Below, one piece after another: positions 717-44,039 of a stretch of 64,000 bases of DNA. The stretch comes from Psammoneis japonica (Eukaryota), in the NCBI GenBank assembly GCA_008632985.1, contig QPGO01000233.1, forward strand, positions 1 through 64,000, written 5' to 3'. Numbering within the stretch: position 1 is the stretch's first letter; each line of letters opens with the position of its first letter. The notes under the pieces are model-generated. The model ran no database searches and was not told the DNA's origin. It saw only the letters and a program-made list of their open reading frames with translations. The translations under genes and the position numbers were made by a program.

Positions 717-1256
717 TGTGACGAGGAAAAAACTGGTCAAAGTTTTTTAGTCATCACATTAAGACACGTATGTTTAAAGTGTCTGTTGACCCAAACAACA
801 GAAGAATCTGCAGGTGCATGTGGACGAAAACGCTGGTCAAAGTTTTTCAGCCATCACATCAAGAAAAATCTTCAGGTGTGGAGGAAAAACCGGTCAAAGT
901 GTTTTGGCCATCACATCAAGACACGAGTGTTTGACATGTCTGTTGATGGAAACAACAGAAAAATCTTCAGGTGTGGAGGAAAAAACTGGTCAAAGTTTTT
1001 CAGCCATCACATCAAGACACCAATGTTCAACATGTCTGTTGACGGAAACAACAGAAAAATCCTCAGGTGTGGAGGAAAAAATGGCCATCACATGAAGACA
1101 CGAATGTTTGACATGTCTGTTGATGGAAACAACAGAAAAATCTTCAGGTGTGGAGGAAAAAACCAGCCAAAGTTTTTCAGCCATCGCATCAAGACACGAA
1201 TGTTCAACATGTCTGTTGAAGGAAACAACAGAAAAATCTTCAGGTGTGGAGGAAAG
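717..1256. repeat. Tandem repeat, ~96-bp unit, about 5-6 imperfect copies
   Basis: The anchor GTGGAGGAAA recurs at about 878, 973, 1069, 1150 and 1246, within the unit ...CAGCCATCACATCAAGACAC...TGTCTGTTGATGGAAACAACAGAAAAATCTTCAGGT. Confidence 0.9.
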
Positions 1257-1261
1257 GTCTT

Positions 1262-1285
1262 TCTCTCTCTCTCTCTCTCTCTCTC
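1262..1285. repeat. (TC)n microsatellite
   Basis: Visible run of about 12 TC units. Confidence 0.95.
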
Positions 1286-2180
1286 ACAAAAGAACAAGTG
1301 AGCAAACAAACGATTGACAGCAATGGCGCCCAAGGGTGTGTGCAAGGACAGCGTGCAATGTTGACAACCCCAGATTTTGAGTGCGTGTCATCTTCCAGCT
1401 CGTCCCAGATGCCCCTCATGCCAAACTTTGACACATCATCTGTGGATCCTTTTGCCACTTCATCGTGGAACAAAAGTGACAAAGAGCAGCTTGCAGCTCA
1501 TGATCTGCCATCTGCTTCGACGCACAAATCCAGCGGCACCTCTTGTTTGACTTGGATTTTAACTCATGGAAAGTCAAGAACATGGAAAGGCCGTGGTGAC
1601 TTTTGAGGAAGCTTTGTGCATCTGCTTGACTCGTTGACGGGATCACGCCTTGGTGGCCAATTTGCGCAATGATGTGGGAGTTTGTCACACCCACTTGGGG
1701 AATGTTTGTGCTGCATTTTCCAATGCTTCAAGGGCACATGAAGTGCAACAAAATTTGGCTCAGAAGCAACAACCACAGGAAGCTGCTGTGGAGCAAGACA
1801 AGATGCAAATGGACACTGCCGGCACACTCTGCAATCATGTGAAGGTCTGCATTTGAAATGGACACAACACAAGGGAGACTCGCTGACGGCTTCTTGTTGG
1901 AATGGTCATGTGACACAGTCTTGGTCTTTTGTGAAGCGTTGGCCATTCAAAAAAAAATTGTCGCATCCATTGCTCCGTGACACAGCGCATTTGTCCCTGG
2001 GCAATTTGCAATGACAGCTTTCTGAGGAACAAAAGAGTCAATCAGGTGTGCATGCAGCCCCTTCTGTGGCTGATGCAGCTTCTTCTTGGCTCTGTCCCAA
2101 ACCTTCTTCACAACAAAAAATGCTGAATCTGAGCATGGCAAATCCAAAATCAGCTCATGATTGATCAACGGAGTTGTCAT

Positions 2181-4790: not shown

Positions 4791-5759
4791 TGCAACCATT
4801 CTGCAGAATCTGAGACTCCGGTGAATCCTGGCATGGAATCTTCTGAAAATGAATTCTGTGGAACCAGACCTTGTGCCCATGTTTCGATTTGTGTGAATGA
4901 CGGACATTGAAGAATCCCTCTCACCAGATCACCAGAGCTCCTGTTTCTTGCCAGATTCTGAAGAATTGGCTGCTCGCTCAAGATGTGGCACCCTTGGCTC
5001 TCAGCCTCTGTTGCCTTTTTGCAGCACTTCTCTTGCTGCAATTCCATTGAGTTCATTGGTCAAAAGAGGAGAGCCTCTTTGTGTTGCTTCTTTTGCCACC
5101 ATGTCAGTTGCTGTCCTCCCCTCCTGCCCTGATGCCGATGCGTTCCAGCTCCAGGTGGGACCTTGCACTGCTGCACTGTGACATCAACAGTTTTTTGGAT
5201 CACGTCACATGTCGCGCACGCACATTTCTGCGTGTTGTGTTCTGCGAAATTGTTTCACACTCCCTGTTTTGCGAAGCCAAAGGCTTTCCATTTTCAACAT
5301 TCATGAGAACAAAAATGTGCTGGGTGTGTTTTTTGATGTCTGCAGAACACACCCGGGCAAACTGTTGATGATGTGCTCCAAGCATGAAGGAGGAGATGCG
5401 TTCATAAGATTGCCTCTTTTTCTGTTGGTGATCATTTGTATTTTCATTACAGTGCAAATTTGCTGCGGAGCTCGCACGTGGAATTCCACAGGCCCAATGT
5501 CACACGGAGCCCCACCTGGGGCTGGAACCCGTTTGCCACTGTTGTGACTTCTCCCGAGAAGGTCAGGAGCATTTTCATGGAGACCAAACACCAAGATGCC
5601 TTCAACAAGGCAGCATTTGGCATTGAGAATGATGACTTTGCCAGTGCTGTGATCCCACCAAAGTCCAAGCTCCTGCTTCAATCTGAGTGGGAGAAGAGGG
5701 TTTGGGCAGTGAAGCCCTGCATCAGCGAATGGCGATCAGTTGGCAAGAGGGTCTGGTTG

Positions 5760-6900
5760 CGGAAAAAGATGCAGAAGAGCCATCACCAGCCAATCCCCAC
5801 GGTGCCATGGGAGGAAATCTGACATCGGCTGCACTTGGAGTCATTAAAGGACTGGTGGGGCCCGCCATTTTGTGTCCACCACACGTCTTGGCCTTGACTG
5901 CTGTCGTGTTTTTGTTTTCCTCGGATTGCTTGTTCAAGAGTTGGGCTCTGGAAAATAAGAAGGAGCAGTCCATCAAGCCCATTCTCAAACACGAGGAAGA
6001 GCCACTGCAACCCAACAAGAAAAGTTGTCATGCTGACGTGTCCTGAATTGGCATGTTGTGCTCTGGGACCAACCGGCGAGAGCTTGGTCAAGCTGGGATT
6101 GGCCTTGGTGCAATCGGGAGTGTGCTTGACGCATTTGATTTTTGTCCCGCAAAACTTGCACTCGTCCTTTCTCCTGCTCTTTGGGTTGGACTGGAGCGCA
6201 CGATGGTGGTTGATTGCCATGGTGCTGATTCAAATACCCCTGTCGTGGATTCGTGATATTCGCAAGCTGACGCCTACCAACTTACTTGCCAATACGTTAA
6301 TACTGTATGGTTTACTGATTTGCTTGGGGTATGCTGTACGCCAAACCGTGGGAGGAGAACTAGTCTGGTATGAAGACATTTACAAGAGCGTGACCAGTCT
6401 AAGTCCTTATCGGGACTTATGGTATTTATTCATCGGAACAAGTGTAAGACAAAATGCAGGACTCAGTGCCTGGTACTGCCTTGCGGTCATATGCACCTTT
6501 CCACTCCAAAACTTCCCCTCTCTTCAAATTGCTTGTCATTCCATGACTGTCGCAGTAAAACACCGGTATCCCAGCCTATCTTCCGACAATTGGGTCAATA
6601 CGCGCGTGCTAACGTTGCTATCAACACGCAACTTTCAATCGGCTCTGTGTGTGTGCGTGTGTGTGTTTGTTCTCGATTGTCGCGGTATGCACCATGGATT
6701 CGCTAGACAAGGTGGTGAGTCTCAAGGGGACCATGCTGGGATGTCCAATAGCACTGGTCTTTCCGCCGCAGATTCACAATCGTCTAGATCCCAACATTAC
6801 ACCGTGGAGAACGTTCTTGAATAACGTCGTGTCGGGGATGGGTTTCATTGCAGTGGTCGTTGCATCCATAATCACCATTCTCACATGGAACAATAGATGA
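5760..6900 (+). pseudogene. Amino-acid transporter (Aa_trans/SLC36-38-like) pseudogene with a hypermutated 5' half
   Basis: Recognisable segments SAALGVIKGLVGPAIL, QSGVCLTHLIFVPQNL, QIPLSWIRDIRKLTPTNLLAN, WYLFIGTS|gtaag and SLDKVVSL..GCPIALVFPP. It is frameshifted and central helices appear to be missing. The true start is uncertain (possibly about 5450). Confidence 0.8.
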
Positions 6901-10842: not shown

Positions 10843-11523
10843 TCTGCACTGTATTCTTGACAAGGACTGACATAGACTCCAGTACAATCGACATCCGTAA
10901 AGGTGACAACCTTGAAATATGGATTGCTCTCTGCGATTTTCTTTATCCACTCATTGCACGACCCGCAGGGAGGGAGTGGATTCAAGTCCTAATTTGGTCG
11001 AGAGAATATAACTTAAGTTAGACGAAAAAAATCGGAGCTTCAAAGAAGTAAAGGCGGTTCAACCAATCTTACCTCTGAGGAATTTACAACAACCTTGCGC
11101 TTCTGTTGAGTCTTTTCATACGGATTTGAGTAGAGGCTAATGACACGCTTTGGCGTTATTGGTGGCGTCTTGTTGGGTGTCGAAGAAACCAGAGACATTG
11201 ATGGCGGCATATCAAAGGCAGGCGGAACTGACGCAGAAACGGCAGGTGAGAATCTGGGAGACTTGCGCACGGTAACAACATTCCTTCTGTCTTGAGGGAT
11301 TCTCGATTCGCTCTTGCTGCTGTCTGAGTCTTGCCGTGGGGCGTTTTCCACGACCCAGTCTTCTTCCCGCCCCGACCCTTCATCCTCTTGATTAGCATTG
11401 GTCTCTTCTTGAATGACGCTAGAGAAACTCTCCATACTTGAGGACCGTCCAATCGGATCACTTCGCGGTTTGACATCCGTCGATACCTTGTAGCACATCA
11501 ACGACTCGGACGATCCCGCACCT
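10843..11523 (-). pseudogene. Partial duplicate of the 3' end of the deaminase-like gene (16222-16906), including its last intron
   Basis: Near-identical to 16222-16906 at an offset of 5383. It encodes NPLPPCGSCNEW but lacks the CAE half, and the stop codon is lost. Confidence 0.9.
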
Positions 11524-16233: not shown

Positions 16234-18914
16234 CTATTCTTGACAGGGACTGACATAGACTCCAGTACAATCTGTGTCCGTGAAGGTAACAACCTTGAAA
16301 TATGGATTGCTCTCCGCAATTTTCTTTATCCACTCGTTGCACGACCCGCAGGGAGGGAGTGGATTCAAGTCCTAATTTGGTCGAGAGAATATGACTTAAG
16401 TTAGACGAAAAAAATCGGAGCTTCAAAGAAGTAAAGGCGGTTCAACCAATCTTACCTCTGAGGAATTTACAACAACCTTGCGCTTCTGTTGAGTCTTTTC
16501 ATACGGATTTGAGTAGAGGCTAATGACACGCTTTGGCGTTCCTGGTGGCGTCTTGTTGGGTGTCGAAGAAACCAGAGACATTGATGGCGGCATATCAAAG
16601 GCAGGCGGAACTGACGCAGAAACGGCAGGTGAGAATCTGGGAGACTTGCGCACGGTAACAACATTCCTTCTGTCTTGAGGGATTCTCGATTCGCTCTTGC
16701 TGCTGTCTGAGTCTTGCCGTGGGGCGTTTTCCACGACCCAGTCTTCTTCCCGCCCCGACCCTTCATCCTCTTGATTAGCATTGGTCTCTTCTTGAATGAC
16801 GCTAGAGAAACTCTCCATACTTGAGGACCGTCCAATCGGATCACTTCGCGGTTTGAAATCCGCCGTTGCCTTGTAGCACACCAACGACTCGGACGATCCC
16901 GCACCTCTACTGTCCTTTGGCAGTGAAACGGACAGGACAGCAATCATTCTCAAATCCTGACGTTTTAGACCGGGATTTGCCGCAAGAGCAGTTCCAATAA
17001 CATTGCGTTCTGCACAAAGTGATCCCGTCGGCATGCTCACTTCCATGTTGGTGCCACGATAGAGCTTCTTCTGCTTGTCGTCTGTCTCTACTAACAGCAC
17101 CGCCAACACAGGCTTTCTCGTTTTGCGCAACCAAAATTTGACCAAATCAGGAGAGATGGATTGACAGAATTCTAGCCGAAAGTTGCGCATTTCCGCTACC
17201 ATCAATTTTAAATTGTCACTGTCATCCATTTTGTCCTTGTCCAATGACGACGCATCAATTGCAGGCACACCCTCCATGTCCTCAAAAGAGTGCACCTCGA
17301 TATCGTCTTCGCAAATCTTGGTATCATGCCAGAAGGTCTTGAGTTGCCACACATGAAAGTAGGTAGGACGGTAACTCTTGAGAGCTGATTGAATGGCATG
17401 AGTACGGGCGTGAGAGCCATCGGCAAAACTGAGCGTCATAGCAAACGATTGTTTCCAGTCTGGCGAAAATGGATTTGCGGTTGCTGTTATTGATTTGGCA
17501 CGACTACTCTCGTCGGGATATAGCTCATTCCGTGCATGTGCATCGCGGTAGGATTCAATGCACGGCAAGAGTTCGCGGTTGGCAAAGCTCATGTTCTCGT
17601 CGTATCGAAATATGTTGGTGTCAGAATGAATCCTTGTAAGTGGTAGTACAAACAATGTGAGGCAAAATTTTTCGATTGATTGTGTGTAGAAAGAGATAGC
17701 ATCATTGACACTCACCTTACGACAGTCACGTCAGGGTACAATTCATGGACAAAGTGTTCCATCAATTCGGCACACGCCCTCGTCGAGTTTCCGCTGACCG
17801 AATGAGTCCAGTTTCTCGGAGTCCCTACTCCACTCACCAACACCACGACCTTTTTAATTGCAATCCCATACTCTTTGGTTTTCATTTGACCATGCCATTT
17901 TGGCAACAGCGTGGCTAGTAGCGGAAAGAACACGTGATTTAGCTTGAAGTCTTGGTGTCCTGCGACTCGTGGCACATCGCGACCCCGGAACCGCAGACCG
18001 TCCTTATCCGCCTCGACAGGATTTGAGAGGCAAAACCCCGTTGGAATCATGGACCGTCGTGAAGGAGTCGGTTGCACAATGGGGTACCGCAGTGTTTGTG
18101 GGGAACGTTCGAATTTGGGAAAGGAAACAATTTCTCTGCGATTGGAAGTCTGAAGCGATTTGAGGATGCGAGTCGAATACAAATCAAATGCAGAGAAGCG
18201 TGGTTGACAGAGACTGTAATCTTCATCGTTCTCGTTTATTTTGGGAAGGTCCACACTGAGCACGAGATCCGTATGAGAGACATTGTGCACCAGCATTTCC
18301 AAATACCTTCCGGAAGAACTTGTTGTAGGTTGACTGGGAGGCTCGCTGAGCATTCTCTCTTCTCGAGGAATATCTCTTATTGTTGAGCGTCTCTTTTCAT
18401 TCAGTTCATCTTTTTCCTCGTCGTTTTCGTCATTTGGTCTCTTATGCATTTCTTCCACAGACAAAACATGCAAAAATAAAAGCGCAATGGGTGTAAGCTC
18501 CCACCACCTGAATCTTGGAGATCCTAGCTCGACCCACCAAGTGGAGAACACGAAAATCATGGGTACATTGATTGGAGATGTGACCTCTTTCCACGCCCTA
18601 TACAATGCACTGCTGCTCCACGCAAACAACTCCTTTATCGCCGGGTGCTCTTGAATCTTGTGGCGAATCTGTATCAATGCCTTTTGCTGTTCACGCTTTT
18701 GTTCTGAATCATTGTAAAGTGCATAGCAGTATCCAAACGTCCCACAAGTCAAACCCGCAAATACCGAGTACAAGAGCGGCAGCAAATGACCCTTTTGCTT
18801 GTTGTCGCTCATCTCCTCACAGTGAGAAGCAGAACACCTACAGAACAACAGAATGTTGAAAGGCGCAAACACAAGAAGAGCAAAAACTGCTCTTCGTCTC
18901 GTTGAATGGGGCAT
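16234..18914 (-). CDS. Large cytidine-deaminase-like (Zn-dependent CDA fold) protein
   Basis: YRGTNMEVSMPTGSLCAERN (CAE motif) and DLNPLPPCGSCNEW (PCxxC). Introns 17715-17633 and 16455-16372, stop at 16234. The start may instead be the ATG at 18812 (MSDNK). Confidence 0.8.
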
Positions 18915-19059
18915 ACGTACTTTCCAAAAATCCGGTTCCGCGCAGAAATTTCACGCACACGTGACAGACGACAATTCGTGTGCCGAATGACAAACAATGT
19001 GACGATGGCTAAGACTGCCATCATGCCGTCAAGAAGGCTCGTCTCCATTAGAGCTTAGA

Positions 19060-21360
19060 ACTGCAAATGTGAATGTGCACGGTCCCCCACAGTGCAGGTT
19101 TAAACATAAAATTGCACTGAAACCCCCAAGCAATCCACAAATCTGAGAAGACTGCCAGGTCTTGCCTCGGGTGCATTCCACGTGCTGTCACGCCACTTTT
19201 TTCAGTGGATTCACTGCACGCTCATTCCCAGAGTGATCTGTTGCCACAGCAGCAGACACAAGAACTTCTTTGCTTGTGAACTTTCGATCACTCCTGGCAA
19301 AGAAAGGCTGCAACAGAAGCTGTCCCCCGAACCTCCAAGCAGCAAGAACACTCCTGCAGCCCTTGTCGAGCATGTTTGCAAACTTTGGTGGCGATGAGCT
19401 GTCTTTTTTCTGAAACTCTTCTTGCATTGGCAGCAAATTGCTCCTCTCAAAATAATCTGCATCAGACACCCCCCAAGCCACAGTTCCCAACCTCCCAGCC
19501 ATCCGCAAAGCTGCAGAAATGTGGCACCTTTTGCAACGTTGCCTCCACAATGCAGTGAGCAGGTCAGTCGCTGCAAATCCAAGTCTCTGGGCTTGCCCAT
19601 AAAATCAACATTTGTGTTGTCCCACATTGTGACATGCTTGTTTTTGCACTGCTCTTTCCATTTCTCCTTTCGCAGTTCCATGTCTTCCGCGTGTGTGAGA
19701 AACCTTGGCCAAGACTGAGCCGCTGCCAACACCAGTTTTGACTTAGCCCGGAACATGTCACAGAGGACACACTGATTCATGCCATGTGCTGCCTGTGCAT
19801 CGATCCACCGCACGCACGAATGACCCCATGCCATTTCAAAATGGAGGAGCCACTCTTCAAACCAAGTCAAAGACGACTGTGTTTTCATCATCAAATCAAT
19901 GTTGCCATTGCAAACAACAGCAACAAAACACAGAAGGAGCACCATTGACAAAAAACCGGTTCGACGCTGCACTTCAGCATCTTTTGTCGCTTGTGGCAGA
20001 ATGATGGGTTTTTGGTGCAAAGTTTTGCTTTTTGTTTCAGTCGCCCTGCGTGGTTGCTTGCGAGGCGGCGACGAGAGATGCACATTGAGATTAGCAGCTT
20101 TGAGCACAGATGGATTGACAAGAGTTTTTACAGCCGCATGACCCCCGTCAGATGCCTCAGCAGTTTGTTGCAGGGCAAGGTCACCGCCACCATTTTCCTT
20201 GGCATCCTCCAGCACTTGCACCAACATTCTGTTGGTTCCAAGTCCTTTTGACAATGTCACGGGTTTAGCCTCATGACTTTTGGAACCGTTGTTGTCCGGG
20301 GCAAGGAAGCGTACAGTCTCCTTTGCCGCCACCATCTTTCCCTTGATGCATTTCACACAACTGAACGGTTTGGAAATTGTCACCAGCGGGTGGTCGTGGC
20401 ACATCTGCTGAAAATCTCTGGTTGATTGACGTCAATGTTTCCGAACGTCACGTTTCCGAACATCACGATGACATCATCAGACATGTCCATCCGTCACCCA
20501 ATGCCGCCGTGGCTTCTTCGACAAGGGTGAGGCAGCCAGGAACCCGAGCTCTCTGAATCCCAGATCTGCTCATTCAACTTGATTTAGCAGCTAGACCCTC
20601 CCAGGATGCAATTGGCAGATTTTGTTTCCTGGAAGCGCACTGTGCAAACAGGCATCAAAACAACGACATGTGCTGGTGGAAAGAGAGAGTTTTTGGGGCC
20701 TCATCGTGTCGTGCAGCAGAGGAATTGGGGAACTGTCACAACTGAAAAGGCTGTCATGCACTCCATCAGCTGATGGACAGAAACAAATGTGGAGCTGTGC
20801 CAGCTTTTTCTGCAGGTGCTTGGTCGAAGCATTTTGGCTTGCACTCGTCAAATTGGAGAAAAGCGCACTGGGGTCGTCAGAGACGCACGCCGCACACCCC
20901 AGGGACATGAGTGCCCAGTCGAACAGGATGTGTCACACGGTGCAAGCTCAATGTTTGATTCATGACATGGTGTTTTAATCATTTGGCTTAGAAACTCCCA
21001 TGGTGACTTTTGACACGGCATTCCCTTTGACCGACCAAGAAAGCTGGTGTGTGGCTTCTTCTTTCTCCCACCTCTTCCTCCCTCCGAGGCACAGCACACA
21101 GCAACACACCATCCGAGCACTTGTCATTTGCATTGGACATGCTGAAGCATCCATTGCACAGCACAAACCCCACACATTCACCTGTGTAAGTCATGCTAAA
21201 TGCATTGGGTTGTGTGGCATGAGTGCATGCATGCAAGTGCCATTTTTGTGTCCCTGGCGCACCCCCACACCCGCCAGTTTTCGGAGAGACAAACAAACAC
21301 GACTCCAACACGACTGAAAAAGATGGTGAGTTTTTCGTTGGCCGGCCGGGGGGCGGTTTG
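19060..21360. other. TpA/CpG-depleted hypermutated block B (DNA-transposon relic)
   Basis: TA and CG are depleted between two normal-composition genes. The block contains a transposase relic. Confidence 0.85.
19188..20404 (-). pseudogene. DDE transposase relic (PIF/Harbinger-ISL2EU-like, DDE_Tnp_4 type)
   Basis: Motifs WDNTNV, RLT[C]SL[HC]GGNVAKG, LDKG[C]RS and TD[H]SGNERAV match the D..DxGY..ER layout. Frameshift near 19470. Confidence 0.75.
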
Positions 21361-21759
21361 GGTTACGGTACCTCACGCACGGGCACTAGTACTGTATGAA
21401 TACACGGGACAAAACGGTATCTTCGTTCTCTGTTCGATTACCGCTTTAAATACACTTCTACCTTACACCTTAACAGTAGAGCAACAAAGCAACGCAGCGA
21501 AGACAGATGGGTGCGGGTTGAGCAGAACGAACGTTCGAGAGAAGAAACACTGAGACAGACAAAGGACAAAGAGCAAACAGCCATTGAAGTGTTTTTGTAG
21601 TCACCCACGGATCCTTCATCAAAATTGCTTCTGCCTGAAAGACTGACTGCGGGCTGCTGCGACGACTCTCTGCTGACTCGAATTCGTAGTGTACAACGAA
21701 ACTGCGTTGCCGTTTGGACTTAAAAGTGAATCTAGCGAAATACCGGTAATCTGGTAGCC

Positions 21760-26889: not shown

Positions 26890-29800
26890 GGAAGAAACTG
26901 CTTTCATGTTAGTCCATAAATTAGCACTTCCTGCACGTGCACCAACATGCTTCATTCATTCACTGCAAGAAACATGATGGCTTTCAACAGCACTCCGCAT
27001 GTTGGCAGGCCATTTCGGGGGCCCGATCTCAACTCACGCGACCACAAGTTTTCCATTGCTCTCGACATTGTCTCTTCTCGTTGGAACCCATGACACTCTA
27101 GAGAGAGAGAGACTCTAGAAGTGTCCACTTAGAGAAACTGCACGCGCTTCCACTCTCTAGCCACTGCAGCAGCTTAGAGGCCCTCTCCAGTGAAGAGTGG
27201 AGAGAGAGTCTCTGCCAGGGCCCCAGCGATGAATCCATCATGTGCCGTCCAACCCAATGTGATCTCACAATGAAAGCACCGAGGATCATCTGAAAGCCCA
27301 ATGAAATGGTTCCATGCTTCATTCCGGCCTGTTTAGAGTCATCAGTGTGTCACCTGCCAAGCTCTCTCATTGTTTGCATCAATGCAACCAAGAAGCGGCA
27401 AATGAGAAAAGACATCAAACATGAGAGAAGGGTGCAGGTTTTGAGGATGGGTTTCCTGAGGATGGCAACAAAGACAAAATGGGTGAGGGATGGAAAATGT
27501 TGATGTGCACGGTGGCTTGCCATTTTTGGGCATGCCCAACTCCAACAATGGGAAGCTGGACAGCACCATTGTTGCTGCTGCGTGCAAAGCGACAAGAGAT
27601 TGTTGGCTGGAAAAATCAAGGAATGCCATCAAGAATGCAAACAGATGGAACAATGGTTGGCAATTCTTGGTGATGAAAATGAAGACCTGCTGGCAAAAGA
27701 GATTGAGACATTGCCCCACAAGTTGCAGCAGTTGGGGCCACACAGACAGGTGTGCCAAGCAAAACACCAGCACGGTTTGGCCAAACACTTGTTGAACCAT
27801 GCATTTTTGAAAGAGATTGGCTTCATTTGTCGTGTCAAGTGCAGGGCACAAACGGACACTCAGGTGGTTCATGGCCGAAGATTGTTGTGGATGAGTGCAC
27901 AACTTCAGAACAATGGCAGCTGCGTGAACATCCCATTCTAGACAACAACTCATTTTGTTGGCCCTGCTTGGACACTCACCTCTTCTTGCTTGTCTCACTT
28001 TCTGTGACTCCACCCATGTGTGGGGAGGACAAACCATGTGCTGCTTCTTTCATGTGATGAACATGGTTGCATGGTGTGTCAGCAGGGTGGAATGCAGTGC
28101 TGATTGAGTCAATTGGGGGGTCAGAGGGTGAGATGGTGGGGAGCAACATTGCAAAACATTTGAGGTTCAACCCCAGGAGACATGTGCAGAATTTTTGAAG
28201 AAAAGGAACACACAGAGAGCTGTGTTGAGTCAAGCACAAGTTCGCCCATCATGTCAGCCAACAATTGTCACACCTGTGACTTTAATTGTGAAGCATCCTG
28301 TGCCAAACCTTGTGGCACCACAACAAAATGGACTGTGCTGCAGCCCCCCAAGACCAGAGGCAAACAAAAGTGCACAACAAATTGGGGGGCGACTTGCACT
28401 GGACTTCTTGCCACAGTTGCAGCTCTCTTTGTGTGACTTGCAGGGGCAAGAGACAATGGCAAAACAAACAGCTGCACACATGCCATGTGGATGATGGTGT
28501 GCAGAGAAGCAATGCATCAGTCAGCATCAGCAGGGCTCTCACCACATCTGCAACTGATGAAGGAGATGACATTGCAAGTGAAAGAAAACGACAAAAAAGT
28601 GGCACAACAATGAAGTGAGAGACAGAAACATGATTGTGCTGGAGAGCTGCTGCAAGAAGAAGAGGACTTTGTTTGGGTGGAAAAAATTTCTAAAAAGGCC
28701 ACAAAATGCCATGTCAGCAGAGTGGCAACAGCGGCATTGTCTGAGCTCAATGTGCTGCAAATCAACAGAGAGTGAGCATGATGGGAAATGTCAAAGGACA
28801 AGGTGCACAGGGGAATGGATTGCACAGGAGGAGGGGTTGGCACTGGGGCATGCAAAGTGAACCTGCATTGACAATGCAGCAAGCCAGCATCACTCCCCAA
28901 ACCAAATGTGGCATCACCCACACTGCAGCCAGCACCAACATGTCAGGAAAATGTGAGGCAAGAACCTGCACATGTGGTGGAAACTGTGCAGAGGAGGACA
29001 GACCCACATGGATCAATTGGGCCCAACTCAAATTGCTCCCCCCCCCCACATGCAGTTTGTGCACACCATGTTGCAGTTTGAAAAGAACTCCAGCAGCAAG
29101 GAACAGCGGGCTGAGCGTGCTGTGTTGCCAGCTTGGTCAAACCCGGTTGTTGACCCCAGCAGCTTGATTTGAAAGTCTCGGGCTTGCACAAGCACTGCAC
29201 AGCAGCAACAACCTTGCCAAGAACAAACACCATCAATTTTTCTGAGCACCAAGCATGGCACCAACACCCCAACCCTCCTGGGAGACTGTGATGTGAGCCA
29301 AAAAAGTGCCCTTCTTTTTGCAAGCCAGGGTGACACTGACTCAAATTGTGCTTGTGCCAAGATGCCAACACCAAGCTCATCAGAGCTTGTAAAGACAGCT
29401 CCGGAACAGCTCCTGTGGAGAAACTTGGAGAGCTTTTTTGTTTCCAATGCATTTGGAAGTGTGTGATCCTTTTGCAGTGGAAATGCACTGCTCCATGTGT
29501 TGGCGATGTTGTTTGACGCCACACCTTGGCAGCTGTTTGAAAGCTGCAAGGCAGCAAAGATTTTTTTGCGGTGCAAAAGCCAAACAGTGGACACACCATC
29601 CTCTGCACATCATGTGGCTGCTGCACTGGCAGAGGCCCAGTGTTTTAGCACACCAGCAGATGGCAGGCAAAGCAAGTTGATGGAGAACGAAAAGGTGGTC
29701 AGAGGAATTGAGCTGTCACTTGTCAGTTGCATCAAGCTAAATGACATGTGCATCAGCCATGCGGTGCTTCTGAAATCCTCAGCAGTTCTTTTTCCTGTGA

Positions 29801-29980
29801 CACATCGATGTTTTGACAGGGAACGAAAGGCTGATCAGATGGAGGAATGGAACCGTCACTCGTCAGTTGCATCACTCAAATGACATTTGCATCAGCCATG
29901 CGGTGCTCATGAAATCTTCGGCAGTTCTTTTCCTGTGACACATCGATGTTTTTGGAAACCAAATGTTTTGCTCAAGATGA
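26890..29980. other. TpA/CpG-depleted hypermutated block C
   Basis: Starts immediately after the MYND stop codon. Residual TA is mostly in TAA/TAG/TTA/CTA contexts. No recognisable intact ORF. Confidence 0.85.
29713..29952. repeat. ~100-bp direct repeat with a 140-bp period at the edge of block C
   Basis: GTCAGTTGCATCA...GCATCAGCCATGCGGTGCT...TCCTGTGACACATCGATGTTTT occurs twice. Confidence 0.85.
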
Positions 29981-30072
29981 ATTATAAAAGCAGAATAAAA
30001 TAGTGCTTGAAAGCTAAATTATGTTGGACCTACTGTCTTTATTCTCCTAACTAATGTTTTGTGGCACAAACT

Positions 30073-30738
30073 CTACTCAGCAGGAGCCGCAGCGGAAGCC
30101 GCTGCAGAAGCCGATCCAGAAGCTGCAGCAGCTGATTCTTCAGGAGCCTGTGCCTCCGCATCAGGCAAGAGGGCTCCAGCCTTCTCCATCAACTCCTTAG
30201 CTTCTTCAGGAATCTCGACATCACCTTCGACAATCTCCGCTATCGTTTCCTTTCCGTAGGCAGCCACGTTGGTGTCATGGACCTCCCAAATGACGTTGTT
30301 CTCCAGTTGAACGTTGATCATGGCGCCCTTGGTAAATACGTAGACATAGGAATAGCCCGTGCCCTTGGCGAGCTCGGCTTGCAACTCTCGACCAACCGGG
30401 CCGGCAGCGAATCCCGCCGTTGCGCCGACCTTCAATTTGAAATCGGACTCGTACATGCGCTCCGTCGCCATCTTGCCAAGAACAATCACCATTATTTTCT
30501 TCTGAGCACCAATCGTGGCGCCAACTCCCCAACCCTCCTGGGAGACTGCGATGGGAGCCGAAAAGGTACCGTCCTTTTTGCGAGCCAGCATAACGCCCAA
30601 TCCACCACTGCCAGAGATGCCAAGGCCAAGCTCACCAGAGCTTGCCAAGATGACTCCTGAACAGGTCTTGTAGAGATCCTTGTCGAGCTTTTGTGCGTGT
30701 TCGATGCACTCAGAAGCGGCGGTAATGTACTTCTCCAT
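30073..30738 (-). CDS. SYLF/Ysc84-like domain protein
   Basis: GLGISGSGGLGVMLARK.DGTFSAP, GWGVGATIGAQ, AGFAAGPVGR and YSYVYVFTKG..NVAAYG are typical of the SYLF (Ysc84/SH3YL1) domain. Confidence 0.85.
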   Translation of the reverse strand: MEKYITAASECIEHAQKLDKDLYKTCSGVILASSGELGLGISGSGGLGVMLARKKDGTFSAPIAVSQEGWGVGATIGAQKKIMVIVLGKMATERMYESDFKLKVGATAGFAAGPVGRELQAELAKGTGYSYVYVFTKGAMINVQLENNVIWEVHDTNVAAYGKETIAEIVEGDVEIPEEAKELMEKAGALLPDAEAQAPEESAAAASGSASAAASAAAPAE

Positions 30739-31000
30739 GTTGACGATTGAGCGGTTTTGGCAGCAGGCAAAAGATTTTTTTGCGTGAGAGTTGGAAGCTA
30801 AGAAGAGATACTGTACTGTAGAGATGAATGATGAAGTACCGTTGGCAAAAAAAATGACAACAACAAGAAAGATCGCAAGAAAAGACCGTTATTTACTATT
30901 ACTATCATACACGTTGTAAGATATGTATTTCGATTTAAATCGCGCGAACGTTAAACTTTTCAAATTGCCCTTTGGATCTAATTTATCGATACTATACTTA

Positions 31001-34000
31001 ATCGGAGTGCTCATTTCATTCGTGAAAACTGACATCCCATGACAAGGTGATTTCAAATTTCATCCTCATTCTCGTTCGAAATCTTGAAGGGTGCATCAGC
31101 GCAGCAACCAGCAATGCGAGGACACAAAAAATTGCAACCTCGCTCTGCATGTTCACAAAAAATCTGTGTCACAATGGCAGAAAGAAAGCACGCATCTTGG
31201 GCAAAGGGAGCTGCCATGCTTCTCAGCAGCTCAAGGTGGGGTGTGTGCTGCACCACAAAACTCTGGTGCCAGAGAGGGGGAAGAACAACACAGATTTTGT
31301 GTGGCTCTGCTGGGTTTTCTTTTGTTGAGTGCAGGTTCACCCACCGCAAGTTCTTGGAATTTGACAAACCTGCATTTTTTGCAAGAAACGGGGCTTTGGC
31401 CAACCAGCCGCACTTGCGCACAAAAGACATCTTTCGCCAGTGCTCCTCCAAAAGCTCATGCACCCCCCTGGCATGTTTTCTGCAAGCTGGTTCTCTGCAT
31501 GCTTTTGGGGCAAGATGCATGGGCAGCCACCCCACACTCTCACAATTTGTGTTTGACTGTGGTGTCAGGCACTTTGTGGCTCCCTTGCTGATGCACTTTT
31601 GTGCACAAAGTTCTTGTGCAAGCACATGGTCATCATGTGGGACAAAACTCAGTGCAGCCCCATTTTTGTCCCCCTGGGGTGCACCTCAGACACCCACCAC
31701 TTGAATTGTCCCATGTGTCCCATGACACATTTGCCTCAGAATTCTGTCCCAAGCAACAACCAGCATGACAGCAGGGTTGCCACACAGCCCTTCCCCAACC
31801 TCAGCGTTGTTCTGCCATTGTGGCACCTCCGGCTGGGGTCCCAGCCATGAGTGCCATGCACACAATGAGCTCGTTGTGTCAAATGGTTGGGACGCCATTG
31901 CTGACCAGCAACTCATGCAAGACAAAGCTGTGGCAGAAACCTGGAAACAGAAGTGGTGCCCGCACATTGACGAGCAACTGGGAAAGCACACAACATGCAA
32001 CCCTGGATGCTCCATTTCAGCCCTGGACTCTGTTGCAGACCTTTGCTGCCAAAACACAGATGGCAGCTGGAATGATTTGATGTGATGTGGTGTGCCAGGC
32101 TTTCTTGCAGTTTCCCATGAATTTCAAAGGAAGGGCACCTGCAATGTCCTGCACTTTGTTCCACAACTCACAATGCAAGGAAATGGTGTCCTCCCCAGGG
32201 TGTGTTGCCTGGCACTGCACTCTGATTGTCATTGCATCTTTTCATTGTTCTCACTTTTGTTTTGCTTGCACCCTGCCATGCAGTCTTCTTTCACTCCAAC
32301 CATCCAAAAGATCTCAAGCATTTGAGAGTCAAAAAGCAGCTGCACCTGTCAACTCAGCTTGTGTGTTGTCCAACATCTGCACATTTGTGAGGAGCAGCTT
32401 GCTCTCTCCAAAGATGTTTTGCAGCCCAGAACAGCACAGGTTGGCAGATCCAATGCATGCAGGAGGACCCCCCCAACAAGTTGCCGTTGCCAGCAGTGTT
32501 CCCTGACTCTTCTCCCTTTCCAAATCCTGGCGACATTTTTCAGAAAAATTGTTCCCACCTTTCTGTGTTTGAGAAGACACCTGGGTTTGGCTCGCACTCT
32601 GGGAATCCATGAGCATGTCTGAATTTCACCTTGTTGATGAGCCATCACCTCAAGAGGTGGTGGCTGGTGACACAACCAAGCTCATCGATCATGGAGCGGC
32701 TCCTGCCAAAGACCCTGTCAAATTGGTTGCCCATGACTGTGTGACAACCCACCCACCAACTGCAGCCTGTGAACATTGTGCGACAAGTTGTGTGACAAGA
32801 AGTTCTCTTTTGTTGTTCAGAGCTCCCATTCCTCATGCAAGAAGCAACACTTTTCTTGATGGTGAGTCAGTGTGTCAGCCATGGTTTTTCACACAGCCCT
32901 CCAACATGGGAGGCCCAATGTGAAGAGAGGGGTGGAGTCAGAAGTGTGAGGTGCAATGTGCTTTCAAACAGCAGTTGGTTGTTGTGCTCAGAATTTGCTT
33001 TGGGCAAGATCAGCTCTGCTGCAGAGGAGAAGACTGCAGCATGTTGGCATTGAAAATTTGCCACACCAGGGCCTGGTGCGCCCTGCAGCAACATCCACTC
33101 AAGGTCATGCAGTTCACAAAATTTGTCCCCCTCATCCAAAATGGTGATCCACAAGGTTGGATTTAAGGCAATTTTTGAGATCACTTCACACAATCTGCAA
33201 ATGCATTTTGCACTTGCTGGCTGCACATGTTCTTGAAGCTTCCTTTTGTTTGTTTCTCAGGCAGGGTCTGTTGCATCTGTGAGCAGCTCCATCCACTCCA
33301 CATGTGGGTGGGCTGTTTTCACCTGGTCCTTTTGTGCTGTGGCATCTTTCTTGATGACTGTGTCTGGGCTCTGTGTGTGTGCAATCTTAGCTTCACACCC
33401 TTGTGTGGTGTTGGTGGGTCCTGCTGCAACAACTCAAAGTCTGGCCTTCCCATCTTGTCTTTGGCTTTGGTGTCCCATCATGGCCCCTCCTCCTTTGGAT
33501 GAGCTGGGCTGTTCCAAAATGCAAAAACACCTTCATTTTTGTCAACAACACATCAACAAGGGGTCAAACACCAGATTTCCATCCACTGTGCAGGCCTTTG
33601 CATGTTGTTCTGCCATGATCAGGGATGACTCAAGAAGCAAGCTCAATGGAACCTTTGACAGACACCTTGGTTGTGCTGACAATGTGTGATGCACTTGAGC
33701 AATGCTTTTGGTGCAGATGCTTTGTTGCCACTGGAGGAAGCTCAAGTCCTGCCATTTTGGAGAACCACTCCTGCAATGCATGCACCCAAGTCTCAGCCAT
33801 CTCTGTGACATGATTGATGCAAGAATGTTCACATTGCAGCTGGTGCATGGGTGTGAGGAAAGCAACTTGGAACTTGGTTCCACTGCCTTTCTTGTTCCTT
33901 TTTTGGGTTGTCATTCTTCATCATCAAAGACAAAGCAAAAGCTGACCTGGTGGGCTATTTCAGCAAGCAGCAGCAGTTTTCCTTGCATCAGTTGTCATTT

Positions 34001-37000
34001 TTTGTGGTCTGCAGGGTAGAAGAGGTTCTTGCTTTGGGCTTGTGAGCATGGGTCCTTCGTAAAGCACTTGTCATTGCTCTCAATTTGTTGGCTCTGTGTT
34101 GTCCTTCCAGAGAACCACCATGCCAGGAAATGAGTTGGGGAAAGTGCTTTGTGCACTCTGTCTTTTGCAGATCCCATCTTTTGCCACAAGCCTTGCACTT
34201 GTCTGTCTTTGGCTTTGTCCAAATTTGAGGATGAGCATTCCCAGAATGCCATCAACCATGATGCCAATGGACATGCCTTTGCTTTGCAAAGGCCCCTTTC
34301 TGTTGGTTGTTTGCACTCCAGAAGCCACCCAGTCACTTTGTCCATTCACAGAAGCACAACAACATTTCCAACAGTTGTGCCCACAATTTGTCAAGAACTG
34401 CAAGATTGTCATCATCATTGTCATGCTCAATCCATGTGAGTTGCTGGATGGCAGGATTCCTCTTTCAAGTCATTGGCAGCAATGCACAATTTTCTTTGCT
34501 GTTTCTCTCTCCAAGATGTCCACAATTTGCCTTTGCCAACTCCCATCTGCAGCAGCACACCAGTGTAAAACAAGACACCCCAGCATGCTCAATCACTTCC
34601 ATTCAGCTTAGAAAATGGTCATGCCGGTCATGAAGTTTGCACAAGGGTGGCTCAACAACAACTTGTTTGTCTGTGCCTTGGGGTGTCAATTGCAAGCCAA
34701 AGCAAGCAATCCAGCAGGTCAGCCCTCCCACTTTGAACAAGTGATTTGCACAAAACCTTGACAATCTCCTCAGCCACTCTTGGTTGAAGGCATTCATGAG
34801 ATTTGTTGGTGTCTCATGCTGCACATTCTCTCAACTGGGTCAGCACTCTGCATCTCAAAAGAAGCCCTCCCCACACAGGATGGATGGACATCAGTGAAAG
34901 ATTTTTTTTCTTGTTCTGTTGGTGCAGATGTTTTGTCAGTCAACCCCACAGTGGCTGACACAAATGACTGGCTGGCTCCAAGGTTTCCCAAGTTAATCAG
35001 CTGCACTTGTGGCACGGGTCATGAGTTTGGCTTTGTTGCTGGGGCAGTTGCACACCCAATGAAGCCAACTTGCTCAGTTTTGCATCCACACACTTTGCAT
35101 CACTGCAACAATGCATCCAAGCCAAGCCTGTTCCAGCAGCACAAAAGAATGAGAGCAAATGCCATGTTTCATGGGCCTTGATCCCACAAACCACACTGAC
35201 CAACATTGTTGCACCCAGCTGAACTTGTTTTGGAGGCTTCTGCACATTGTTTGCAGCTGTTTTTGTGGAACTCCTGCTGCACACTGCACACATGTCAAAG
35301 CCTGCCTTCACCCTGGCACTCACAAGTTGCGCCATTTCTGAAGATGAAAGGCAAACAGAGGTGGCAATGTGCCTCTGGAAGGTTCCTGGCTGTGCTTGTG
35401 CTGAACAAGACAAAGTGCCAGTTGCTGACTCACAGGCAAGTCTCACATTCATTCTGTGCCCCCCACATTTTGTTAACATGGAACACTGTCTCAACAACAA
35501 AGTCATCATTGGAGCTCAAGAATGGAGCACACTCTGAGCATCCTGGAAGACAAAACTGTCTTGCAGCTCCACCACCCATTGCCAGTCTTGCTTTCTTGTT
35601 GGCAGAAACTGGAGGGGTTGTTGCAGGCAACACTGGGGGCGGGGATGTCAACTTGTGATTTGTCAAGAGCCACTGGAGCTGTGGTGCAGGAGCACCCCAA
35701 ATAGCCACACAGCAGTGGATTGCAAATCCAGCGTTGTTCCACCACTCACCAGCTCCTGACCCAGCACATGATCAGTGGCTGGCAAGGGAGGAGGCAAACA
35801 TCTCCTGAAGTTGCTTTGCAAATGCACTGCAGTCACCAGAGAAACTAGAAAAATGAGTGGCTTGTTAAAAGCATCACAAGCCCAATTGGCAACATCTTGG
35901 AAATGATGTTTGGGCACCTGCATTCTGTCAAACAGTCATTGTGGCTTGAAAAGATGCTTCTCTTCCTCTGAGTGCAAAGTCATGGTCAATGTGCCAATGC
36001 AAAAAATGATCACACTGTGTGCTCCATTTGAGGTGGAGCTTGTTTCTTCTGCATTGCTGGGGCAGAGCAAAGCAACATCATGCAGCACTTTAGCCAGAAT
36101 GCAGAGGTGGCAACCATGCCGCTTTCTTTGCACCTTCTTTTTCTTCTTCTTTTTCTTTGCATGTCTTCTTGGGAAGAAACTCAGAGAATTTCTGTTGCCC
36201 CATCAAAGTTCTTTTCTCTGTTGTTGTTGCCATCTCTCTGCTTGACCCTGAAGATGTGCCAGTGAGGCAACTCCGCTGTTTGCATTTGCAGGGTGCTCCA
36301 TTGCTGTGTTTGTCTGAATGCCTTGGTGGACTTGACCTTGATGTTTGGTCAAGGTGGCAAGCCATGTGCCATCATCTTGGCTGGTGGCTTGACAGCCTGC
36401 ACTTTCCAATGGCAAAACAGTGGAGGAGCTGTGATGCCTGCACTTTCCCAATCATCATGCTGGTGAAAGGAATGTGAGTGGCTTGTCTGGGCTTCTTGAA
36501 ATTCATTGATGAAAAAAAAATCAGTGCTTCCCACACATGGAGGACCAACATGTCTTGTTTCTTTGCTGGAAAACCCCTCGGCAGATTTTGACAGCAGCAG
36601 CCAACATGTTGGCAGGCAACTTCAAGAGCCCAGTCTCACCCCACACATCTGGAAGCTCTCTGCTGCTCTGGACACATGCTGTCTCTTGTTCTTGCCTTGC
36701 TGTTGATCTTGCGGCTTGGACAAACATCCAATTGAGCAGAGCTCCACCTCAGCTGCTTTGTGGCTTTTTTGCTGCTTTTGATGGAAAATTGGCTGCACCA
36801 ATTTGTCTGTTCCTTCAAAAGAGAGGAGACCCTGGAAGTGCCAACTCTGACAAGAGGAAGAGCCTCTTTGCTCAGCATTTTTTGCTCACTTTGCTTGGTC
36901 TTTATTTGAGCCACTCCCGTGACCACTGCTGTTTCAGAAAAAGTGTGCACAGGAGATGTGGGCCTTTGCTCCACTCTCAAAAAGGACCTCCTTTGCATGC

Positions 37001-43795: not shown

Positions 43796-44039
43796 GAGGA
43801 AGTGGCCTCTTTGCGTCCGTCCCGCAGCTCTCCAATTGCCGCAGTACAAAATTTTTATTAAGTGAAGCCTAATCTGAGATGTTTGCTGCCGCATGAAGTC
43901 TTTCCATTTCTCTACGTAGTCTCGAGTAAAATGAAACTGAATGACTGAAATATAGTGTGTGTAAATGGAATTATGGTGCTTCAAGGAGCTCTTTGATCAA
44001 AGCCAAGAATCTGTTGTCAACGGAGGGAGCTGGAGTAGC

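What the first reader, a model, noticed from the sequence alone, without database searches (positions are those of the whole stretch)
19188..19900. Transposase relic with conserved tyrosines systematically turned into Cys/His
Seen: LDKGC (TGC at 19358-19356), RLTCSLHCGGNVAKG (TGC, CAT, TGT) and TDHSGNER (CAC). The 397-aa ORF has no Tyr. Known: DDE_Tnp_4 transposases carry DxGY and a YS.Y motif. Inference: TAC->TGC, TAT->CAT/TGT and CGC->CAC. This is independent evidence that TpA and CpG both decay to TG/CA in transposons.
Basis: partly seen in the sequence, partly recalled or inferred. Interest (0 to 1): 0.75.

Follow-up and report, generated by a model that had tools for sequence, protein, structure and literature searches.

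The report
Tyrosine-less transposase relic from TpA hypermutation
A dead DNA-transposon gene in a diatom has lost nearly all its tyrosine codons because almost every TA step in it was rewritten to TG or CA, a rare transposon-directed mutation process that a second version of the same locus suggests was still acting recently.

Summary
Window 19090-20404 (minus strand) is a dead transposase of a DDE_Tnp_4-like (IS4EU/Harbinger-type) family. It is read in three frames, with two frameshifts and a lost stop codon.

Against 33 homologous proteins and 38 metagenome loci, 7 of 9 Tyr-consensus columns are Cys (4) or His (3). One Tyr survives. The homologues' DNA carries TAT/TAC at these sites: Cys in 0 of 256 cells, His in 7.

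In the 63 most conserved columns, all 6 changes fit TA>TG/CA (5) or CG>CA (1). TA loss (7 of 8 Tyr codons) is more complete than CpG loss (6 of 13 CGN Arg codons). It hits both strands equally (9 TG, 8 CA).

The relic lies in a sharply bounded TA-poor block (about 19108-21363), one of five in the window.

New here: contigs of a public DNA run hold the same locus with 17 differences, all transitions. They keep TAG, Val GTA and Leu TTA where the window has TGG, GCA and TCA. So decay went on after the two versions split.

The scan reported this hypermutation before on other DNA of this genome. The closest publication is a 2026 preprint on Bigelowiella natans. The enzyme is unknown.

The parts
19090..20404 (-). 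Dead transposase gene of a DDE_Tnp_4-like (IS4EU/Harbinger-type) family, readable in three frames
   Evidence: tblastn of homologues P0003/P0004/P0005/P0013 gives HSPs 20305-19466 (frame -1), 19508-19200 (frame -3) and 19185-19090 (frame -2), with E down to 3e-78. It is the only copy in the window. 33 homologous proteins, best E 3e-82.
19469..19476 (-). First frameshift (one base missing in or next to a run of six G on the minus strand)
   Evidence: The frame changes between ...WELWLGG and VSDADY.... The run's contigs break inside this run, so its state there is unresolved.
19186..19200 (-). Second frameshift, specific to the window's version
   Evidence: The frame changes between 19200 and 19185. 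Contigs of run X1 carry one extra base behind 19197, which puts the whole C-terminal part in one frame.
19087..19089 (-). Erased stop codon: TGG where the homologues end
   Evidence: All full-length homologues end one codon earlier. Run X1 has T for C at 19088, which gives TAG on the minus strand.
19547..19561 (-). TYSxYY motif of the family turned into TCSLHC (TGC, CAT, TGT)
   Evidence: Homologues have Tyr in 22/33, 32/33 and 33/33 at these columns. Each relic codon is one TA>TG or TA>CA step from TAY.
19356..19358 (-). DKGY turned into DKGC (TGC)
   Evidence: Tyr in 26 of 26 homologues.
19646..19651 (-). ERY turned into EQC (CAG, TGC)
   Evidence: Arg in 21/33 with CGG>CAG. Tyr in 32/33 with TAC/TAT>TGC.
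19784..19786 (-). Tyr>His (CAT)
   Evidence: Tyr in 16/32 homologues.
19841..19843 (-). Tyr>His (CAT)
   Evidence: Tyr in 15/28 homologues, Phe in 12.
19452..19454 (-). The one surviving conserved Tyr codon (TAT, in SDADYFE)
   Evidence: Tyr in 31 of 31 homologues and TAT kept in the relic.
19233..19235 (-). Arg>His (CAC) in DRSGNER
   Evidence: Arg in 20/23 homologues; CGC>CAC.
19634..19636 (-). Arg>His (CAT) before the WDNTN motif
   Evidence: Arg in 33 of 33 homologues; CGT/CGC>CAT.
19108..21363 (.). TA-poor, TG/CA-rich block that holds the relic and about 960 bases upstream of its ATG
   Evidence: 13 TA in 2,256 bases, against 3-9 per 100 bases just outside. CG is only about halved.

Best explanation
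Window 19090-20404(-) is a dead copy of a DNA transposon whose transposase belongs to a DDE_Tnp_4-like (IS4EU/PIF-Harbinger-type) family common in marine eukaryote metagenomes. After insertion, the element and about 1 kb of its flank were hit by a locally confined mutation process. It turns TpA into TpG or CpA (A:T>G:C transitions at TpA, on both strands). Ordinary CpG>TpG/CpA decay ran beside it.

Tyr is the only amino acid whose codons begin with TA, and TAY is also the favoured T-A-pyrimidine context. So tyrosines were converted almost wholesale to Cys (TGY) or His (CAY). Arg CGN codons went partly to His, Gln or Cys. The TAG stop became TGG.

Shown: the direction and context of the changes, their restriction to the block, their strand symmetry, and their continuation after two versions of the locus split.

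Inferred: that a dedicated enzyme does it. The likeliest is a DNA adenine deaminase aimed at silenced mobile DNA, as proposed for Bigelowiella natans. The CpG part is inferred to be deamination of 5-methylcytosine in methylated transposon DNA.
For: Homology and direction. 33 homologues were found. In alignment columns with a consensus of at least 50%, 176 of 227 are kept in the relic. Only 3 fit the same base changes in all other contexts. At 90% consensus or more, 57 of 63 are kept and 6 of 6 changes fit (5 TA, 1 CG).

Tyr columns: 9, giving Cys 4, His 3, Phe 1, Tyr 1. DNA of 38 related loci keeps TAT/TAC there. Codons with an internal TA are 2 of 403 in the relic, against 8.5% of 7,070 codons in 20 loci.

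Both strands: 9 TA>TG and 8 TA>CA on the coding strand (my count).

Confinement: sharp blocks in the composition profile. The adjacent gene has normal TA and CG.

Context rule: of 69 TA left in the window's five blocks, 40 are YTAR and 2 RTAY. Outside, 286 and 537 of 1,763 are (Fisher p 2e-14). In this block, 8 of 13 are YTAR.

Second version: run X1 differs at 17 sites, all transitions, and 13 are TA or CG against TG/CA. At the 4 sites where homologues give polarity (stop, Val, Leu, Gly), X1 has the ancestral state and the window the derived one. None of the seven Tyr>Cys/His codons differs in X1, and all 30 bins are covered.

Precedent: TpA-only hypermutation of foreign DNA was measured in B. 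natans mutation-accumulation lines (bioRxiv 10.64898/2026.01.13.699255; abstract and sections 11, 12, 22 read).
Against: No enzyme is identified, and nothing here shows catalysis.

23 of the 51 changed columns are not explained by the two rules. That is ordinary divergence at 33-57% identity, and no close ancestor is available because no genome is held.

The enrichment among the 17 X1 differences is modest. 49% of sites would qualify by chance, so 13 of 17 gives one-sided p 0.02. X1 may be the assembly's own sample, another strain or the other haplotype, and some differences could be consensus errors.

A 672-base duplicate at 97.3% identity (16235-16906 / 10852-11523) is not hypermutated: 4 of 18 mismatches are at TA, in both directions. 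An intact gypsy element is not hypermutated either. So neither repetition nor being a transposon suffices.

The B. natans signature is TpA only. Here CpG decays too.
Confidence: 0.85

Rival explanations
1. There is no dedicated system. A passive, context-dependent mutation bias of silent or methylated chromatin (for example error-prone repair or replication of heterochromatin) slowly erodes TpA and CpG in any DNA that is no longer under selection.
For: All hypermutated stretches are non-functional DNA. CpG decay in methylated diatom transposons is expected (PMC9998398, passages read). An intact young gypsy element is untouched, which fits slow accumulation.
Against: TA is nearly gone (observed/expected 0-0.1) in every block, while CG ranges from 0.03 to 0.77. 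In this relic, 7 of 8 Tyr TA are lost against 6 of 13 CGN. So TpA erasure outruns CpG decay, itself one of the fastest spontaneous changes. Non-TA, non-CG sites are well kept: 57 of 63 highly conserved columns. Block edges are sharp. In B. natans the rate was about 1000-fold raised and seen only in some lines (abstract).
Confidence: 0.12
2. The outcome is the same but the chemistry acts on thymine. An enzyme modifies T at TpA (for example oxidation to 5-hydroxymethyluracil by a TET/JBP-type enzyme), and the modified base mispairs with G, giving T>C.
For: TpA is its own complement, so A>G on one strand cannot be told from T>C on the other. TG and CA products are equal, 9 and 8. That thymine is replaced by 5-hydroxymethyluracil preferentially at TpA in dinoflagellates is my recollection, from no call.
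Against: No TET/JBP gene or modified base was sought or seen here. The T-A-pyrimidine preference has a ready parallel in TadA/ADAT-type adenine deaminases (recalled; the preprint names ADAT2).
Confidence: 0.12
3. It is a RIP-like process triggered strictly by sequence duplication.
For: The targets are mostly multi-copy elements. Depth rises about 7-fold over the conserved 3' end of this relic, so the genome holds more family copies. Many diatoms have DNMT4, which may be related to the fungal RIP factor RID (PMC9998398 passages).
Against: A 672-base, 97.3% identical duplicate 5.4 kb apart keeps 22 and 25 TA. The gypsy LTR pair (292 bases, 3 mismatches) is nearly intact. The chemistry is opposite to RIP, which makes TpA.
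Confidence: 0.08
4. It is an artefact. Modified bases in silenced DNA are misread, so true TA is assembled as TG/CA.
For: All 17 differences between the assembly and run X1 are transitions, and 9 of them have TG/CA in the window where the run has TA or CG. The platforms are unknown.
Against: X1's contigs, at depth 52-65, show the same TA-poor sequence with only 5 more TA in 2.4 kb, and the same seven Tyr>Cys/His codons. Differences also run the other way, 4 sites. A frameshift and many non-TA substitutions show real decay.
Confidence: 0.03
5. It is a functional, domesticated transposase that selection has made tyrosine-free.
For: A 397-codon open frame.
Against: There are two frameshifts and a lost stop. 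Invariant family residues are replaced (Tyr 33/33, Arg 33/33). The non-coding flank 20405-21363 is equally TA-poor. The open frame is expected once TAA and TAG are gone.
Confidence: 0.01

Closest known systems
TpA-specific hypermutation of integrated giant-virus and virophage DNA in the chlorarachniophyte Bigelowiella natans (Mettrop et al., bioRxiv 10.64898/2026.01.13.699255)
   Same: Almost only T/A>C/G transitions at TpA. Confined to foreign or mobile DNA. Leaves TpA-poor, CpA+TpG-rich sequence. Thought to be a deaminase-type defence (abstract and sections 11, 12, 22 read).
   Different: The lineage differs: this is a diatom, and the word 'diatom' occurs 0 times in that text. The target here is a DNA transposon. 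CpG decays alongside. Here the evidence is a footprint plus two versions of one locus, not measured rates. Their candidate ADAT2 was not examined here.
Repeat-induced point mutation (RIP) of Neurospora and other fungi
   Same: Transition hypermutation confined to mobile or repeated DNA that riddles coding sequence with missense changes and kills the element.
   Different: RIP is C>T, mainly at CpA, and creates TpA. Here TpA is destroyed and CpA/TpG created. A 672-base 97% duplicate is untouched. No link to a sexual cycle is known here. The features of RIP are stated from established knowledge, and its C>T direction also from the abstract of PMC7296669 in the listing.
CpG decay of methylated transposons (5-methylcytosine deamination)
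   Same: It explains the Arg CGN>CAN/TGN changes (6 of 13 CGN Arg columns). Diatom transposons are CG-methylated (PMC9998398 passages).
   Different: It cannot produce TA>TG/CA, which is the larger and more complete component here.
IS4EU (ISL2EU) / PIF-Harbinger DNA transposons (Pfam DDE_Tnp_4, often with THAP and HTH_Tnp_4)
   Same: Homologues match PF13359. Atlas neighbours of P0004 are DDE_Tnp_4/HTH_Tnp_4/THAP clusters. One is named 'Putative is4eu-1' (TM 0.63/0.73), and two are commonest in diatoms.
   Different: Most homologues score below Pfam's cut-off. The relic itself scores nothing. No terminal repeats, target duplication or THAP remnant were found.

Membership tests
DDE_Tnp_4 (PF13359) transposases, IS4EU/PIF-Harbinger type | Match to the Pfam model above its curated cut-off | tested here: inconclusive
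   The relic ORFs get no family at E<=1. Of 9 intact homologues, 8 match at E<=0.1 and 2 exceed the 24.8-bit cut-off (P0008 26.2, P0017 32.9). 1 has no match.
DDE_Tnp_4 (PF13359) transposases, IS4EU/PIF-Harbinger type | Conserved acidic residues (D in WDNTN, D in DKGY, E in NER) | tested here: met
   D239 and E372 are invariant and D324 at least 90% conserved in alignment A1. The relic keeps all three. That these are the catalytic triad is inferred, not tested.
DDE_Tnp_4 (PF13359) transposases, IS4EU/PIF-Harbinger type | Terminal inverted repeats and a short target-site duplication | tested here: inconclusive
   The best candidate is 14 nt at 86% (19064-19077 / 21173-21186), with unlike flanks. 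It is no better than chance, and hypermutation may have erased the ends.
DDE_Tnp_4 (PF13359) transposases, IS4EU/PIF-Harbinger type | N-terminal THAP or HTH DNA-binding domain | tested here: not met
   tblastn of the N-terminal parts of three long homologues against 20300-21500 gives nothing better than E 0.44. THAP is only weak (E 0.013, below cut-off) in homologue P0013.
TpA-specific hypermutation of foreign DNA (B. natans type) | Changes are A:T>G:C transitions at TpA | tested here: met
   17 (+1) of 51 changed columns, 5 of the 6 most conserved changed columns and 7 of 9 Tyr columns. 5 sites have TG/CA in the window against TA in the run.
TpA-specific hypermutation of foreign DNA (B. natans type) | Confined to foreign or mobile DNA with normal flanks | tested here: met
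   The block runs about 19108-21363. The neighbouring ORF has TA 0.40 and CG 0.92, against 0.09 and 0.54 in the relic.
TpA-specific hypermutation of foreign DNA (B. natans type) | Only TpA is affected | tested here: not met
   CpG>TpG/CpA explains 10 more changed columns, and CG is roughly halved. This may be a separate, superimposed process.
TpA-specific hypermutation of foreign DNA (B. natans type) | Per-generation rate raised by orders of magnitude | not testable with these tools
   It needs mutation-accumulation lines. Indirect hint only: the two versions differ at 17 sites in 2.4 kb, mostly TA or CG sites.
Fungal RIP | C>T at CpA, raising TpA | tested here: not met
   The direction is opposite: TA 0.09, TG 1.56 and CA 1.72 observed/expected.
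Fungal RIP | Any sufficiently long duplicate is mutated | tested here: not met
   A 672-base duplicate at 97.3% identity keeps 22 and 25 TA.

The most novel reading that the evidence does not exclude
Diatoms run an active, enzyme-driven genome defence that edits A:T to G:C at TpA in silenced mobile DNA. It is the same kind of system as in the chlorarachniophyte B. natans, and so possibly old within the SAR supergroup. It is still at work in this strain, because two versions of this relic have each gained further TA>TG/CA changes, apparently once at the very same ancestral TA (19556-19557: TG in one, CA in the other). A long shot within this reading: the diatom-wide LmjF36.5940-like deaminase encoded 175 bases from the relic is part of the machinery.
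Probability: 0.5. Interest if true: 0.85.

Novelty: new member of a known kind. Interest (0 to 1): 0.68.

Why it matters
A natural process that rewrites A:T to G:C in DNA at a defined dinucleotide, aimed at mobile DNA, would be a second kind of mutational genome defence beside fungal RIP and vertebrate APOBEC. It would also be a natural counterpart of engineered adenine base editors.

It matters for annotation as well. Diatom transposon relics lose Tyr, Ile and stop codons, escape profile searches (this relic gets no Pfam hit) and form long spurious open frames.

This relic gives a clean protein-anchored readout of direction, strand symmetry and the relative speed of TpA against CpG loss. It also gives a locus where two versions differ, which makes the process testable in culture.

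Tried and rejected
- Own-genome search for other copies: no genome is held.
- Pfam on the relic's ORFs: nothing at E<=1.
- Terminal inverted repeats: only a 14-nt, 86% pair, judged chance.
- THAP or N-terminal remnant upstream of the ATG: no hit better than E 0.44.
- Other hypermutated relatives among the 38 metagenome loci: none. L035 has low TA (0.15-0.27), but it is a 61% G+C contig without TG/CA excess, so it reflects composition, not hypermutation.
- The pair 30472-30695 / 29213-29440 (one copy in a block, one outside) is too diverged to be informative: 43 mismatches, 21 of them transversions. Even so, 4 TA and 6 CG sites go in the expected direction against 1 the other way.
- Expression: no RNA holder is listed for the stretch, so nothing follows.
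- State of the first frameshift in run X1: the contigs break inside the G run.
- Literature: searches for LmjF36.5940, for TpA/diatom/transposable elements/hypermutation and for diatom/RIP/dinucleotide/retrotransposon turned up no paper that describes TpA hypermutation in diatoms. Only listings and the named passages were read.
- bioRxiv supplements of the B. natans preprint are closed. They may list affected families that bear on the comparison.
Full report
**What is there.** The window looks eukaryotic and intron-poor, with about 48% G+C. No whole genome is held for it. A neighbouring gene has its best relatives (42-63% identity) in named diatoms such as Thalassiosira, Skeletonema, Cyclotella, Cylindrotheca, Nitzschia and Seminavis, and in the bolidophyte Triparma. 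So the organism is a diatom or a close relative.

A word-seeded HMMER search with the 397-aa ORF nevertheless found 33 proteins (E 3e-82 to 5e-21, 33-57% identity), mostly from metagenomes.

tblastn of four of them back onto the window shows a single copy, read in three frames: 20305-19466, 19508-19200 and 19185-19090. That means two frameshifts. The homologues end where the relic reads on through TGG.

**Family.** Of 9 intact homologues, 8 match Pfam DDE_Tnp_4 at E<=0.1, and 2 of them are above the curated cut-off. One long homologue has a weak THAP match. ESM Atlas neighbours of P0004 are DDE_Tnp_4/HTH_Tnp_4/THAP clusters. One is named 'Putative is4eu-1' and two are commonest in diatoms.

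The relic keeps the three conserved acidic residues, in WDNTN, DKG- and NER. I found no convincing terminal repeats and no N-terminal domain remnant. I file it as a DDE_Tnp_4-like, IS4EU/Harbinger-type transposase relic, with membership resting on its relatives.

**The observation.** The 397-aa ORF has no Tyr. In the true frames the relic has 1 Tyr in 436 residues (0.2%), against 3.1% pooled in the 33 homologues. Cys is 3.2% against 2.0%, His 3.2% against 1.7%, Arg 4.8% against 7.1% and Ile 1.6% against 4.1%. Each homologue has 1.9-5.2% Tyr.

**Direction of change, tested column by column.** I aligned the 33 homologues and added the three relic pieces.
- Consensus of at least 50% (at least 12 sequences): 176 of 227 columns are kept and 51 changed.
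- Consensus of at least 70%: 115 of 130 are kept.
- Consensus of at least 90%: 57 of 63 are kept.

For each changed column I asked whether reverting TG or CA to TA, or TG or CA to CG, inside the relic's codon (using the real neighbouring bases) yields a codon for the consensus residue.
- At 50% or more, 28 of 51 do (17 by TA, 10 by CG, 1 needing both). Only 3 of 51 fit the same four base changes in every other context.
- At 70% or more, 10 of 15 do, against 1 for the control.
- At 90% or more, 6 of 6 do (four Tyr>Cys/His, one Arg>His, one Val GTA>Ala GCA), against 0.

The nine Tyr-consensus columns read Cys 4, His 3, Phe 1 and Tyr 1. The Phe is a common family variant, 7 of 23. The surviving Tyr is TAT at 19454-19452.

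The 17 Arg-consensus columns read CGN 7, AGG 3, His 4, Gln 1, Cys 1 and Leu 1. So about 7 of 8 Tyr TA are gone but only 6 of 13 CGN. On the coding strand, the 17 TA-type changes split 9 TA>TG and 8 TA>CA (my count from the list). Both DNA strands were hit alike. That argues against editing of a sense transcript and fits a DNA-level process.

A scan of metagenome contigs with the family alignment returned 38 loci with DNA. At the nine Tyr sites these give 256 readable cells: Tyr 203 (TAT/TAC), Phe 22, Trp 17, His 7, Cys 0 and others 7. At the five best conserved sites, 150 of 158 cells are Tyr and 1 is His.

The 30 loci with a match of 500 bases or more have TA observed/expected of 0.42-0.86, against 0.10 for the relic. 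Codons with an internal TA are 2 of 403 in the relic, against 8.5% of 7,070 codons in 20 loci (range 4.1-12.6%). Internal CG is 6.2% against 7.0% (range 3.6-12.7%). Intact relatives thus carry Tyr, not Cys or His. None of the 38 loci shares the relic's TA loss.

**Setting.** The relic lies in a block (about 19108-21363) with 13 TA in 2,256 bases, next to DNA with 3-9 TA per 100 bases. The window has five such blocks: about 1000-6000, 19100-21360, 27000-30000, 31000-38500 and 44000-46500. In them TA observed/expected is 0-0.1 and TG and CA are 1.5-2.3, while G+C stays at 0.46-0.53.

CG ranges from 0.03 to 0.77 between blocks and is highest in this one. No 500-base bin has CG lost with TA kept. 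TA erasure therefore saturates before CpG decay does.

The surviving TA follow a neighbour rule. In the blocks, 40 of 69 are YTAR and 2 are RTAY. Outside, 286 and 537 of 1,763 are (odds ratio 7.1, p 2e-14). In this block, 8 of 13 are YTAR. TG is most enriched before a pyrimidine. Tyr codons, being T-A-pyrimidine, are ideal targets.

**A second version of the locus.** One public DNA run (X1, coded, kept as contigs) holds 81% of the stretch's sampled words. Laid on 19000-21400, its contigs (depth 52-65, continuing for kilobases on both sides, so this is the same locus) differ at 17 places, all transitions, and carry one extra base behind 19197.

By context:
- Window TG/CA against run TA: 5 sites.
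- Window TA against run TG: 1 site.
- Window TG/CA against run CG: 4 sites.
- Window CG against run TG/CA: 3 sites.
- Other: 4 sites. Three of these are adjacent (19555-19557). There the window's TG and the run's CA at 19556-19557 could both derive from one TA.

Chance would put 49% of transitions in these classes, so 13 of 17 gives one-sided p 0.02.

With the run's letters, the whole C-terminal part reads in one frame up to the family's usual last residues and a TAG stop. The second frameshift, the Ala for Val at 19095-19093, the Ser for Leu at 19741-19739 and the Arg for Gly at 19588 are thus peculiar to the window's version. In all four cases the run agrees with the homologues.

None of the seven Tyr>Cys/His codons differs in the run. 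So the bulk of the erasure predates the split of the two versions, and more TA and CG changes followed in both.

I cannot tell whether the two versions are alleles, strains, or in part consensus errors. The run may be the assembly's own sample.

**What it is not.**
- Not a Tyr-free functional protein (frameshifts, lost stop, equally depleted non-coding flank).
- Not RIP. The direction is opposite, and a 672-base duplicate at 97.3% identity (16235-16906 / 10852-11523) keeps 22 and 25 TA, with only 4 of 18 mismatches at TA sites, in both directions.
- Not something that befalls every transposon at once. The gypsy element at 52778-57678 has an intact 1,407-aa pol ORF, LTRs with 3 mismatches in 292, and normal TA with high CG.
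- An artefact of misread modified bases is unlikely, since the run reproduces the TA-poor sequence. Platform information is lacking.

**Mechanism and comparison.** The only published parallel I found is the 2026 preprint on Bigelowiella natans. Integrated giant-virus and virophage DNA there mutates about 1000-fold faster, almost only by T/A>C/G at TpA, in some lines only. ADAT2 is proposed as the DNA adenine deaminase. That text does not mention diatoms. My three literature searches found no description of this in diatoms.

I think the same kind of process acts here, on a DNA transposon in a stramenopile, with methylation-driven CpG decay superimposed. Diatom transposons are CG-methylated (PMC9998398 passages). 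Adenine deamination and thymine modification cannot be told apart from sequence, because TpA is its own complement.

Earlier agents of this scan reported the same hypermutation on other pieces of this genome, on the other blocks of this window, and as Tyr>His/Cys in Copia relics. I re-derived the points I use from my own calls.

**Verdict.** The case adds four things:
- A protein-anchored measure of direction.
- Strand symmetry.
- TpA loss outrunning CpG loss.
- Evidence that decay continued between two versions of one locus.

The enzyme and the targeting signal remain unknown.

Noticed in passing
window 16237-18914 (-): Directly downstream of the relic (ATG at 18914, 175 bases from the relic's end) lies an apparently intact gene for an LmjF36.5940-like CDD/CDA-type deaminase (PF14421, E 2.6e-38). 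It has an N-terminal Rossmann-like part, CAE and PCxxC zinc motifs and two or three short introns (GTGAGT at 17715). It is conserved across diatoms at 750-1250 aa. Iyer et al. 2011 (PMC3239186, passages read) suggested mRNA-editing or DNA-mutagenising activity for this family. Its place next to a hypermutated block is probably coincidence. Its CAE motif suggests a cytosine rather than adenine substrate, but it is an untested candidate mutator that the B. natans preprint does not mention.
   Followed up: partly
window 10852-11523 and 16235-16906: A 672-base duplicate of the deaminase gene's 3' end (97.3% identity, 18 mismatches, no gaps), including its last intron and PCxxC exon. Neither copy is TA-depleted (22 and 25 TA), so duplication alone has not drawn the hypermutation.
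   Followed up: partly
window 52778-57678: A young, apparently intact gypsy-type LTR retrotransposon. It has a 1,407-aa ORF with RT, RNase H and integrase domains. Its LTRs (52778-53069 and 57387-57678) differ at 3 of 292 bases. TA is normal and CG observed/expected is 1.4-1.7. Two of the three LTR differences are TA in the 3' LTR against CA/TG in the 5' LTR, too few to interpret.
   Followed up: partly
window 19081-19161: Summed contig depth in run X1 rises from about 60 to 420 over the conserved 3' end of the transposase. The loose ends of those extra contigs are TA-rich, which suggests several further family copies in the genome, some not hypermutated.
   Followed up: no
window 42230-43795 (+): One open frame joins a nucleotide-sugar transporter domain (PF04142, E 2e-74) to a family-29 sialyltransferase domain (PF00777, E 2e-28), an unusual fusion.
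   Followed up: no
window 19555-19557: Three adjacent differences between the window (GTG on the plus strand) and run X1 (ACA). Two of them fit one ancestral TA turned into TG in one version and CA in the other. The third fits neither rule.
   Followed up: partly
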